64,000 nt of DNA from Octopus vulgaris. Its lineage: Eukaryota. Numbering within the stretch: position 1 is the first letter of the stretch; each line of letters opens with the position of its first letter. Below are positions 2,691-53,400 of this stretch, in pieces. Under the pieces are notes generated by a model. It was given only the letters and a program-made list of their open reading frames with translations, ran no database searches and was not told the origin of the DNA. The DNA lies in the NCBI GenBank assembly GCA_951406725.2, contig OX597815.1:14322001-14386000 (forward strand), written 5' to 3'. The position numbers were made by a program, and so were the translations under genes.

Positions 2691-3237
2691 GTCCTGCGCT
2701 TGTATATACATTATGCATGACACGTACCTCGTTATTGTAATCTACTGCTGTTTCTGATGAGTAGATTTTTTTTAATAGAATTAGTGATTTATTAGAATGT
2801 TCCGCTTCTCTTTTTTCCTTAATTACTTTTCTCTTCATGTTCAATCTTTTCGCCCAATATTTATCAATTTATACAATTATTATATGCGCAATATTTTCAC
2901 AGCACAATTGTGGAGTTAGGATGAACGAAACTCCATGAATTTTAAAGTAAAAATGTTTGAAGTTGTATAAAGATATGCAAATAAATATTTATTCATATGT
3001 ATATCTACATATATATACATATACATATACATATATATGCATATACGAATACACATATATATTTATACATATGTAAACATATATATATGCTCTTATATAA
3101 ACAGACATACATGCAAATATTCATGTATGTCTGTAGGAATGTACTGAGTCTGCATTGAGTATGCATTTTGATTTATGAAACTCCAATATGTACGTATGTA
3201 TGAATGTATGTATGTATTATGTATGTATGTATGTATG

Positions 3238-3275
<38 letters not shown>

Positions 3276-3379
3276 CATATATATATGTATATATATATAT
3301 ATATGTATGTATATATGTATGTATGTATGTATATATGTATGTATATATGTATGTATGTATATATGTATATGTATGTATG

Positions 3380-3695
3380 GATGTGTATCTCCATATGTGT
3401 GGGGTGTGTGTCTATATATGTGTCCTTGCGGGAAATAAAGTGTGTGTGTATATATACGGTCATATGTTTCAGTCTTCATCTATGTATGGAGGACTGCTTT
3501 TTGTCATCATATTGTCTCAAATGTTCATTTAGTCGTTCCGCAATGCTCCTAGAGTAAATGGCTCTTTGAGACAAAAAGCAGTCCTCCATACGCAAATGAG
3601 GACTGAAACACATGACCATATATACACACACACTTTACTTCACACAAGGACACATATGGAGACACAGATCCACACATATAGAGATGCACATCCAT
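3380..3695. repeat. Fold-back inverted repeat, ~125-bp arms, ~60-bp spacer
   Basis: 3380-3505 is the reverse complement of 3567-3695, e.g. ggaggactgctttttgtc / gacaaaaagcagtcctcc. Confidence 0.85.
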
Positions 3696-4277
3696 ATATG
3701 CAAACACGGTACACAGTTGCAAAACACACACACACACACACACACAGATTCAGATATTCACACACAAGGAGTCAGAGGGATACACTCACACGCGCAAAGA
3801 CACAAGCACACACATACACACACACACAGATAAACATAAAAACACACAAATACGTACACGCAAACATATGAATATGCAGAATACATGCATACAAATGTAC
3901 ACACATACATATATGTATATGCACGCACACACATACATGCATACATACACACATGTGCATACATAAAGACATGCATGTGCATGCATACACACACACACAC
4001 TAACGCATGCGCAGAAACAAACAAAAAGGAACGCAGTGTGAATAACGAAGAGAATCAAAACTATTGAAAAGATGGCAAGACGCAACGAAAATTTTAGAAA
4101 AATTTTTAAAATAAGTGGAAATTTTACCGGTGAGTGTGTTGAATTATAAGGCGCTAAAAGAGAGTGACTCTCCCCAGACACATCAGAATATGCTTCACCA
4201 CACGAACTCACATAAAGAATCTTGCAAACCAAATCTCGCCAGTTATTAAGGCAAACAAAATGCATTTTTGTTTGTGT

Positions 4278-4340
4278 TAATAGCTGACGAGATGCCGGAT
4301 CAGACTTCTGCTTCGACATCCGAAACTCTGAGTTTTATTA
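4278..4340 (+). ncRNA. Type-I hammerhead ribozyme-like motif, copy 1
   Basis: TAATAG-CTGACGA-GATG..CATC-C-GAAA-CTCTGAG-TT-TTATTA. Confidence 0.6.
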
Positions 4341-4361
4341 TGGCAACCGACTAATTGTCAC

Positions 4362-4437
<76 letters not shown>

Positions 4438-4612
4438 ACACACGCACACTCACGCAATTAAATCCATATAGTTTATCCAAATAAACAGATACATATCCGT
4501 GATGCACGTAAAACGATTTCCATGAATAAAAAATCCTAGACATAAGTGTGCGTGTATATGTATTTATTTCGTTTTTGGGATTTGATTTGCAGGATTCTTT
4601 ATTTGTTTGTGT

Positions 4613-4674
4613 TAATAACTGATGAGATGCCGGAGCAGACTTCCGCCCCGATATCCGAAACTTGAGTTTTATTA
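4613..4674 (+). ncRNA. Type-I hammerhead ribozyme-like motif, copy 2
   Basis: TAATAA-CTGATGA-GATG..TATC-C-GAAA-CTTGAG-TT-TTATTA, with a perfect 6-bp stem I and a near-palindromic stem III. Confidence 0.68.
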
Positions 4675-4771
4675 TGGCAACCGACTAATTGTCACGTATT
4701 ATATTATAGATAAATTCCTCTATTTACATAATATCGAGGTTTCATTCATTCTTTTGTTGTCATATTATTAC

Positions 4772-4806
<35 letters not shown>

Positions 4807-39519: not shown

Positions 39520-40773
39520 AGCCAACAATTGGTCCGCTAGATATTGGAGCTACCTTTCCCTTAAATTACAACCTATCGTCTTTAATTATGACACTATTCA
39601 ATGAAAAATATGGAAATGTGTCCTGGAAATATGTACGTTCGAAACAGAGACCTCACTCTCCGTTTGGCCCCTTTAAAATCTCCCCACAGATCGGATCACT
39701 GATGACCCAAAGGAAAGTGCTGAGCTTATTGCTGCATGCTATACTGACATTTTTATTGTTGAAAATCCAAATCTACCTTCTTCACCAACTCTAACATCGA
39801 ATTCCATAACATCTGTGAAATTCACACCCACAAAAAGCTTCGGCGCCACCTCGAGAATAAGCGCAAATATGTGTCTCCTGGTTTTGATGGTGTTACTTAT
39901 ATGCTTCTCAAACGTGGCGGGCTCTTCGTTTTGCACCAGCTTTCATTCTTATTTCAATTCTGCCTTAACAACTGTTTCACTCCAGAGAACTGGAAAATTG
40001 TCAGTGTCATTCTCCTCTTCAATACAGGTGATCGCACATCACCTGCCAACTATCGTCCAGTCAGCCTTACTGGCTGCATCGCCACACTGATGGAGTCCTG
40101 TGTCAAAGAAACACTCTGAAATTTTTGGAGCTCTCACAACCCTATTCGACCCTCGCAATTTGGATTTACCCATAACTCCAGCTGCTGTGGCCAACTCATC
40201 GAGTTTCTTAAGGACATCTTTGGAGTTACTTATGGCGGCTTCTAGGTGCATGTTATCCACCTTGACTTTTCTAAAGCCTTCAATTCTGTGCCATACAAAT
40301 AACTCATGGCAAAACTCTCTCATCGGGTGTGACAGACGATGACTATAACTGGCTGAAGTCAGAAACGTGTAACAAAACGAATAACTACCGTTAGGAATCT
40401 ACCATGCTCTGAACGTCTTGCTTCCCTGGACATGGACACATTGAACCTCAGACGTCTAGCAACTGACTTGGTAGACACCACAAGATTATCCAACAACCTT
40501 GAGCACCTTTTTTGAATTCCATATGTCATACACTTGTGGACATGCTCTCAAAAAACAACACAGTGCTCATAACTTTCGGAAGCATTTTTTCTTACTCAAA
40601 ACTGTTGAAGCATGGAATAAACAACTCGCATCAGTCGTTAGCTGTCAAGACACTACATCCTTCAAAATTTCCATGTTTCCTGAAATCCGCCAACAGTACA
40701 GATGATGGTTTTTGCTTAGTTGTAGTGCACCTGAGCACTCTATATATAACAAATTCTTTCATATTTTATGTTG

Positions 40774-52130: not shown

Positions 52131-52960
52131 TCAGTGGTGTTGTCTGGGCATTTTTATAGTGGGAAAACTAGGAATTTGGGAGACTTGTGTTGTGCACAGA
52201 GATCTAAGTGACCACTAAGTAATATCTGTTTTATGGTAGGATCCCTCAATTGTTGGCGGTGGACTGTCATCCTTTCTCTGAGAGTAAGTCTCGTTTGCCC
52301 TATGTAATCTTTGTGGCACCCTTCACACCTTATGGCATAATGTAAATTTTTTGATGCGCAGGTGAAGTTAATCTTTAGGACAAAATTGTGTCCCGATTGT
52401 AATATGTATATGGTTCCTTTAAGAAGGTGGATGCAAGTCCTGCAGTTGGAACGACCACATTTTTTGACGGTGGGGGTGGGCTTGTGATGGGTAAATTTGC
52501 ATTGATGAGTAGATTTTTTTATGTATTTGGGTTGTCTTTTCCGTTTTATTATTTTATGTTATGGGTTTCGAGTACTTTTTTTAGACATGGATCTTGACTC
52601 AGTAGTGGGATGTTCTTGTATATAATTGTGTAAACTTCCGAATTTCTTGGATTGTCTGTTGAGAGGTATGAGAGACTATTAATGTACTATGAGTGAGTTT
52701 CAGTATTCGTAAGTCTTGGGTATCGATTGTCTTGGCCCGTTCTATTCCATTATCGACTAACGATGCTGGACAATGTCTTTCGAGAAGAATTACCTTTAGT
52801 TCTTGGAGTCTTTTATTCCGTGTTCTATAATTTGAGACAATTGTACAGAATCTTCTTGCTAGGTTAAAGGGGAATTTCTCTTCGTGTGTTTTGGGTGATT
52901 GGAGGTGAACAGAAGGTATTGTTTTGGAATCAGTTGGTTTGTAGTGGATATCAGTTTCAA
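52130..52960 (-). pseudogene. Penelope-like (Neptune-type) RT C-terminus plus GIY-YIG
   Basis: IETDIHYKPTDS..PFNLARRFCTIVSN (ORF 52599-52979); KKCGRSNCRTC..FTCASKNLHYAIRCEGCHKDYIGQTRLTLRERMTVHRQQ. Confidence 0.9.
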
Positions 52961-53400
52961 TGTTGGAGCCTGCCAACATCGAAATAACATCACGGCAAAA
53001 GAATGCGACTACCTAAGAAATTTTAATTGCAAAACCAGCATCCTCTACAGGCTTCCAAACATCCATAAGAGTAAAATTATAGCAAGAGTAAAATAATAAA
53101 AGTCCACTTCAATCTGCATCGCTGTACCACATCCCACTGATGTCAAACTGAAACCGATTGTAGCAGGCCCAATTAAAGCTAGCATTGGTTTAACGTTAAG
53201 AAGAGTAGGATATTTTCCTTGATTTTTCAAACGGATCATCACATGGAGAACTGTGTTGACCTCCATTGATCGGCTTGAGATATTGTTAAGCAACTCAGTT
53301 ATTCTCATACTCTTCTTAACACAAAGCCAATGGTAGCCTTAATTCACAAATAAAGAAATTATTTATCCAGCAGTGCGATGTTGAGCACTCATTCCAACGT
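52960..53400 (+). pseudogene. Inverted upstream fragment of a PLE RT
   Basis: KECDYLRNFNCKTSILYRLPNIHKSK..LKPIVAGP (cf. FYGLPKIHK..LRPIV). Confidence 0.8.

What the first reader, a model, noticed from the sequence alone, without database searches (positions are those of the whole stretch)
4268..4698. Tandem HHR pair defining a ~334-nt retrozyme-like monomer
Two diverged ~95-bp direct repeats each contain an HHR motif. Predicted cleavage after GUU at 4334 and 4668 would release a 334-nt RNA, the size class of animal non-LTR retrozymes that form circular RNAs. Differences between the copies mostly keep pairing through G-U swaps (GATG/CATC vs GATG/TATC; TAATAG vs TAATAA against TTATTA). Stem III is near-palindromic with essentially no loop, which suits dimeric cleavage. 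Inverted pieces of the same unit occur at 4211-4260. The extra C before GAAA and the GUU triplet are non-optimal.
Basis: partly seen in the sequence, partly recalled or inferred. Interest (0 to 1): 0.72.

Follow-up and report, generated by a model that had tools for sequence, protein, structure and literature searches.

The report
Flipped Hydra transposon tails, not retrozyme
The two hammerhead-ribozyme motifs are real but are decayed tail ends of a common protein-coding jumping gene, likely turned to face the same way by a small local DNA inversion, so the 334-base stretch between them is a one-off piece and not a repeating circular-RNA element.

Summary
In detail: two 91%-identical copies of a minimal type I hammerhead, with predicted cuts after 4334 and 4668. 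The retrozyme reading does not. The motif is the 3′ end of a dispersed Penelope-like retroelement (373 exact 19-mer core matches). Longer copies run into a broken RT plus GIY-YIG ORF carrying the Hydra-clade motifs (RWK, DKT, CxCx5C); one has hammerhead pLTRs at both ends, 3063 bp apart. The GUU triplet and palindromic stem III match published Hydra hammerheads. The 334-nt 'monomer' has no full-length match elsewhere: it is (AT)n, unique DNA and the tip of a second repeat. Neighbouring copies elsewhere are mostly head-to-head; no other short direct pair was seen. Flipping about 4233-4603 in silico restores an intact neighbouring repeat and an ordinary head-to-head pair, so a micro-inversion with 24-27-bp breakpoint duplications best explains the direct pair and the inverted pieces at 4211-4260. 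Subfamily changes spare the catalytic core, suggesting active ancestors kept the ribozyme; these two copies look neutrally decayed. Cleavage was not tested. The scan noted other hammerhead and Penelope families in this genome, but no look-alike of this sequence. New member of a known kind.

The parts
3107..3488 (-). Inverted 5' arm of repeat family B (unclassified; fixed 3' end next to (TA)n)
   Evidence: matches other B loci in reverse
3587..4235 (+). Repeat family B, sense arm, broken off about 12 nt before its normal 3' end (left breakpoint of the inferred inversion)
   Evidence: 29 of 31 other B loci with the anchor motif continue into the normal end; this copy switches to family A
4233..4260 (-). 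27-nt inverted stub of the hammerhead unit (family A); forms a hairpin with 4262-4293; inferred breakpoint duplicate of 4602-4628
4262..4366 (+). Family A (Hydra-clade PLE) 3' fragment, copy 1, ending in (AT)n
4278..4340 (+). Hammerhead motif 1: stem I 4278-4283 with 4335-4340, core 4284-4290, stem II 4291-4320, extra C 4321, GAAA 4322-4325, stem III 4325-4333, predicted cut after 4334
   Evidence: sequence; pair counts; layout as
4362..4433 (.). (AT)36 microsatellite, the likely insertion target
   Evidence: Hydra PLEs prefer (TA)n
4436..4540 (.). Spacer with no second copy found in the genome
4563..4603 (-). 3' tip of repeat family B in reverse, including the end missing at 4235; 24 nt overlap with 4212-4235 (right breakpoint)
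4602..4790 (+). Family A 3' fragment, copy 2, running to the element's natural 3' end and a (TAT)n run
4613..4674 (+). Hammerhead motif 2: core 4619-4625, stem III one base shorter than the family, predicted cut after 4668

Best explanation
The two motifs are decayed 3' ends of a Hydra-clade Penelope-like retrotransposon, likely inserted as one ordinary head-to-head pair and later turned into a direct pair by a roughly 370-bp inversion. Shown: the motif sits at the 3' end/pLTR of an RT plus GIY-YIG element; copies are dispersed, variably 5'-truncated and mostly paired head-to-head; the 334-nt interval is not a repeated unit; flipping the segment restores an intact neighbouring repeat and a standard pair. 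Inferred: in the active parent the hammerhead would cut tandem precursor RNA as a dimer through its palindromic stem III; the element was reverse-transcribed into a (TA)n target with an inverted truncated arm; staggered breaks or a template switch (3-nt microhomology at 4233-4235) then inverted about 4233-4603 and duplicated 24-27 bp at each end. The locus itself is most likely inert.
For: Family link: L021/L031 and L006 run from a broken RT/linker/GIY-YIG ORF into this motif. Of 11 further loci picked by RT DNA, 5 carry the motif downstream in the same sense. L080 is pLTR-ORF-pLTR with motifs 3063 bp apart. Hydra motifs among 12 broken ORFs: RWK 2, DKT 6, CxCx5C 6, YKDD 8, KCxLC 5 (against the definition). 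Copy number: 373 exact matches of a 19-mer, 0 for the reversed control. Arrangement: 13 of 13 close pairs among the first 100 listed matches are head-to-head (counted by eye); 19 of 27 and 17 of 19 neighbour relations in two locus sets are head-to-head, and the only direct ones are this locus, L080 and one split hit. Interval. Inversion: B's missing end lies reversed at the far side; both A pieces start at the same element position (250 and 251); the flipped sequence gives one continuous 255-nt B match and one 181-nt A arm. The duplicates differ (2 of 24, 4 of 27), which argues against an assembly error.
Against: The stub 4233-4259 should be the twin of 4602-4628, yet it differs at 4 of 27 positions while copy 1 differs at only 2 and shares the private G (4276/4611; 2 of 105 copies) that the stub lacks. 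This needs a later conversion or a back-change. No orthologous un-inverted locus was available. Pfam support for the ORF is weak (GIY-YIG E 0.015, below cut-off; RVT_1 E 0.037 only on homologue P0001). Clade placement rests on motifs and a by-eye comparison, not on a tree. Loci were chosen by similarity to the query, so arrangement counts are samples and not a census.
Confidence: 0.85

Rival explanations
1. Non-LTR retrozyme: the 334-nt interval is a mobile monomer cut out by both hammerheads and circularised.
For: Size lies in the 150-450 bp class and GC is 29%. Both copies keep all 11 core letters checked. Their stem III strands can pair with each other (-4.8 kcal/mol). Animal retrozymes are argued to derive from PLE pLTRs.
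Against: No second copy of the unit or its middle was found. It contains (AT)36 and the reversed tip of an unrelated repeat. The repeats extend only about 100 nt, so there is no head-to-tail array. In a transcript of 4200-4700 copy 1's stem I strand is locked in the 4233-4293 hairpin (P 0.997; stem I P about 1e-10), and stem I stays near 0 for a transcript starting at 4262.
Confidence: 0.03
2. Same element family, but two independent truncated insertions and two independent B pieces came together by chance, with a small deletion, and no inversion.
For: PLEs tend to insert into or beside earlier copies and both families end at (TA)n. About 13 of 73 copies are truncated in the same short size range. 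Copy-to-copy distance (8 of 90) overlaps the family range.
Against: Needs several coincidences: matching A start points, B's missing tip present exactly at the other junction in reverse, and a variant shared only by these two copies.
Confidence: 0.07
3. The inverted layout arose during the insertion itself, by template switching of the PLE reverse transcriptase or of repair onto flanking target DNA, not afterwards.
For: The breakpoints coincide with the element's 5' junction; the duplicates have diverged about as much as the arms; PLE insertions are known for complex tandem/inverted structures and 30-40-bp tails.
Against: No other locus among those examined shows captured, inverted flank between two direct copies. 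Sequence alone cannot order the two events.
Confidence: 0.05

Closest known systems
Hydra clade of C-terminal EN+ Penelope-like elements, e.g. Hydra-1_Obim, Hydra-1_Ajap, Penelope-3_HM (Craig et al. 2021, PMC8557442; passages, section 11 and supplement parts read)
   Same: RWK, DKT, CxCx5C linker, CxxC and CxH motifs, C-terminal GIY-YIG, (TA)n targets, 3' type I hammerhead with a 4-bp palindromic stem III and 1-nt loop. 10 of 26 published Hydra rows have U at the cut site; two have the same ACUC-N-GAGU-U.
   Different: A different family from Hydra-1_Obim: its hammerhead sequence differs and short motifs of this family were not found in the supplement's Hydra entries. About 3.06 kb with a longer 3' UTR, a true pLTR copy (L080), a longer stem II with one extra C, and an extended stem I.
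[quoted passage not shown]
   Same: Long helix II, small palindromic helix III, mostly single or opposite-strand copies 100-700 bp apart, occasional pairs about 3 kb apart around an ORF.
   Different: Here one pair is direct at 335 bp, best explained by a local inversion. The extra base is on the 3' side of helix II rather than after A9.
Metazoan non-LTR retrozymes (Cervera and de la Pena 2020, PMC7229834, passages; Li et al. bioRxiv 10.64898/2026.07.22.740005, part 1 of 5 and passages)
   Same: Type I hammerheads about 330 nt apart in low-GC DNA.
   Different: No repeated monomer, no multimers, no dispersed full-length units, and the motif has a coding parent element.
Inversions with inverted breakpoint duplications from staggered breaks (Ranz et al. 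2007, PMC1885836; abstract only)
   Same: Short inverted duplications at both ends of an inverted segment.
   Different: Here about 370 bp with 24-27-bp duplications, inside transposon debris, and with no outgroup to confirm it.

Membership tests
Hydra-clade PLE | Single ORF with RT and C-terminal GIY-YIG | tested here: met
   Broken but colinear in L031, L076, L080, L081; 40% identity to an intact 673-aa homologue; atlas neighbours are RT- and GIY-YIG-bearing clusters; Pfam hits are below cut-off
Hydra-clade PLE | RWK motif and DKG changed to DKT | tested here: met
   RWK in 2 and DKT in 6 of 12 broken, mostly 5'-truncated copies
Hydra-clade PLE | CxCx5C linker; CxxC and CxH motifs; no CCHH | tested here: met
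   CxCx5C in 6 of 12 and KCxLC in 5 of 12; no cysteine pair between the two tyrosine motifs in the alignment
Hydra-clade PLE | Type I hammerhead near the 3' end; (TA)n targeting; pLTR and inverted truncated copies | tested here: met
Hydra-clade PLE | Length generally under 3 kb | tested here: inconclusive
   3063 bp between the pLTR motifs of L080, slightly above the published range
Hydra-clade PLE | Placement inside the clade in an RT/EN tree | not tested
   Reference proteins were seen only in a paper supplement and were not entered into tools
Type I hammerhead ribozyme | Conserved core and three stems | tested here: met
   80 of 105 copies, including both here, keep 11 core letters; 90.6% of cells paired; none of 18 differences between two subfamilies hits 15 core positions, P 0.033
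Type I hammerhead ribozyme | Covariation of stems | tested here: inconclusive
   Score reached by 33 of 500 shuffles; one A-U to G-C change in stem I and one A-C to G-C repair between subfamilies
Type I hammerhead ribozyme | Self-cleavage | not testable with these tools
   No pile-up of read ends at the site in fragmented RNA-seq, which is not a test of cleavage
Non-LTR retrozyme | Head-to-tail tandem repeat of a 150-450 bp monomer | tested here: not met
   Only about 100 of 334 nt are repeated; no tandem unit of that period
Non-LTR retrozyme | Multiple genomic copies of the monomer | tested here: not met
   No full-length match besides itself among 124 listed matches from 40 scored of 1145 candidates; middle unmatched
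Non-LTR retrozyme | Expression as abundant circular RNA | tested here: inconclusive
   No reads on 4436-4600 in 3 runs (about 6% of each read), but the runs were not shown to be this species and were not RNase R libraries

The most novel reading that the evidence does not exclude
A micro-inversion of an ordinary head-to-head PLE pair has created, de novo, a direct pair of intact hammerheads around 334 nt of host DNA. If transcribed from near 4262, the two copies would pair through stem III, cut at 4334 and 4668 and yield a circle: a snapshot of one route by which retrozymes are born from PLE debris.
Probability: 0.04. Interest if true: 0.6.

Novelty: new member of a known kind. Interest (0 to 1): 0.2.

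Why it matters
Modest. It adds a Hydra-clade Penelope-like family with at least three subfamilies, a full pLTR-ORF-pLTR copy and a natural series of hammerhead variants, useful for testing whether these GUU hammerheads cut as dimers. It also warns that two hammerheads about 330 nt apart need not be a retrozyme: an inversion of a head-to-head insertion gives the same look. If the locus did make a circle, it would show a simple path from PLE debris to a retrozyme.

Tried and rejected
Rfam: no hit at gathering score, and no hammerhead among 11 weak hits at E up to 10. First clade guess Penelope/Poseidon (recalled) was dropped after the motif test pointed to Hydra. The PLE-like ORF just downstream of the motif in L003 is a different element: none of the ORF searches linked it to this family and it gave no Pfam hit. 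Pfam on single broken pieces and a PDB sequence search were uninformative. Run search: no RNA holder listed. Laying 3 raw RNA runs and one contig set on 4436-4760 gave only reads from other copies (39 of 39 at 4611 carry the family C, not this locus's G), in both mate directions, with no end pile-up; on L080 the reads were 3'-weighted, in both directions, with no pile-up at the hammerhead. Family B was scanned for a standard hammerhead core and for an upstream ORF; neither was established. Lünse et al. on dimer-cleaving PLE hammerheads is not held and is known here only through a review passage. Literature searches; an octopus repeat paper (PMC13282606, passages) does not mention ribozymes. 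Supplements of the bioRxiv retrozyme preprint were not seen and might list this family.

Full report
Observation. The window holds two direct copies at 4267-4366 and 4602-4700, 91% identical. Each reads as a type I hammerhead: 6-bp stem I, CUGANGA, long stem II, an extra C, GAAA, a self-complementary stem III and GUU, with predicted cuts after 4334 and 4668, 334 nt apart. Rfam does not recognise them, they fold no better than shuffles, and a loose core pattern hits 15 places in the window, so the single sequence proves little.

The motif is a dispersed repeat. The window's genome is 2.8 Gb in 227 contigs. The 99-nt unit gave 1819 first-look candidates, of which 40 were scored. An exact 19-mer covering stem I and the core occurs 373 times, against 0 for the reversed control. 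Copies share a fixed 3' end beside (TA)n or (TAT)n and differ widely in how much lies upstream: 5 to over 320 nt in 73 copies.

Parent element. L021/L031 and L006 continue upstream into a broken ORF with RT, linker and GIY-YIG parts. A search with the RT DNA gave 1200 candidates. Of the 11 loci besides the seed, 5 carry the hammerhead unit downstream in the same sense and one has it inverted at the 5' break; in the others the element or the fetched locus ends first. L080 is a complete pLTR-ORF-pLTR layout with motifs 3063 bp apart. The ORF matches intact 667-752-aa proteins at 38-40%; atlas neighbours carry RT and GIY-YIG families; Pfam scores stay below cut-off. Craig et al. define the Hydra clade by RWK, DKT, a CxCx5C linker, CxxC and CxH, no CCHH, and (TA)n targets. 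These motifs are present among the 12 broken copies. Their supplement lists Hydra hammerheads with the same 4-bp palindromic stem III, and 10 of 26 rows have U at the cut site, including an octopus family. That family resembles this one by eye but is not the same. The host is probably an octopus (inference from that resemblance and the genome size; not tested).

Is the ribozyme under selection? In 76 aligned copies 90.6% of cells pair, but covariation is weak (33 of 500 shuffles reach the score). With a divergent subfamily added (105 copies, three groups of 50, 23 and 32), the core is the same in all three majorities. N7 is C, U or A (36, 34, 34), the stem III centre is U or G (50, 48), U17 is kept in 104 and the extra C in 94. 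One stem I pair changes from A-U to G-C. None of 18 differences between two subfamily majorities falls on 15 core positions (P 0.033). This suggests, without proving, that active parents needed the fold. The two window copies differ from their subfamily majority at 6 and 4 of 90 positions (median 7), mostly by transitions, and copy 2 has lost a stem III base.

The 334-nt unit is not an element. It consists of the motif's tail, (AT)36, about 105 nt with no second copy found, the reversed tip of another repeat (family B, 2248 candidates) and the motif's head. No other match covers more than about 100 of the 334 nt (40 of 1145 candidates scored, so this is not a census). Close neighbours elsewhere are head-to-head: 13 of 13 pairs among the first 100 listed matches, 19 of 27 relations in 72 loci and 17 of 19 in 30 more. 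The rest are tail-to-tail, several of them partial-hit artefacts, apart from this locus, L080 and one split hit. This is the pattern described for PLEs, not for retrozymes.

Why a direct pair here? Family B runs to 4235 and stops about 12 nt short of the end that 29 of 31 other anchored B loci show; that end lies reversed at 4563-4603. The inverted A stub at 4233-4260 and copy 2 begin at the same element position (250 and 251). Flipping the segment in a script gives one continuous 255-nt B match and a normal head-to-head A pair. An inversion of about 370 bp with 24-27-bp duplications, the kind of signature described for staggered breaks (abstract only), accounts for the direct pair and for the inverted pieces at 4211-4260. 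The duplicates have diverged, so an assembly error is unlikely. One point does not fit neatly: copies 1 and 2 share a private G that the stub lacks.

Could the locus still cut? Both cores are intact and the stem III strands can pair (-4.8 kcal/mol). But in a transcript of 4200-4700 the 4233-4293 hairpin takes copy 1's stem I strand and core (P 0.997), and stem I is not predicted for either copy in a transcript from 4262. No promoter or host gene was identified; the window's long ORFs are mostly microsatellite. PLE hammerheads cleave slowly even as dimers. RNA runs showed only other family copies, and their species was not established.

Verdict. A real hammerhead motif of a known kind, in a family of Hydra-clade Penelope-like elements that I did not find described, at a locus whose retrozyme-like look is best explained by a small inversion. 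Earlier notes of the scan describe other hammerhead and Penelope families in this genome but none like this sequence. Interest 0.2.

Noticed in passing
window 3107-4235 and 4563-4603; loci L036-L069: Repeat family B: 2248 candidates, fixed 3' end at (TA)n, variable 5' truncation and frequent inverted arms, so it behaves like a PLE tail, but no standard hammerhead core or linked ORF was established. It holds a long internal hairpin (by eye).
   Followed up: partly
window 52154-53012 (-): Two open frames that look like RT-thumb and GIY-YIG pieces of another Penelope-like element (by eye; family label recalled).
   Followed up: no
L003:1623-2986 (+): A different, broken PLE-like RT ORF (with a DKG motif) begins right behind a family A hammerhead, with a short duplicated flank; probably a nested insertion.
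   Followed up: partly
L080 (G000:C6:1744669-1748589, -): Complete but broken pLTR-ORF-pLTR copy of the family; its two hammerhead copies are nearly identical.
   Followed up: yes
G000:C2:109848525-109850663; C4:105474835-105476459: Head-to-head hammerhead pairs 1.6-2.1 kb apart, probably long inverted insertions of the same family.
   Followed up: no
L112-L141: Divergent subfamily whose extended stem I appears to be kept by a shifted pairing register with different sequence (by eye).
   Followed up: partly
L047 (about 2008) and L041 (about 2071): Other CUGANGA...CGAAA motifs unrelated to family A turned up in flanks, probably other PLE families.
   Followed up: no
window 39677-40090 (+): Open frame that reads like a LINE fragment (by eye).
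   Followed up: no
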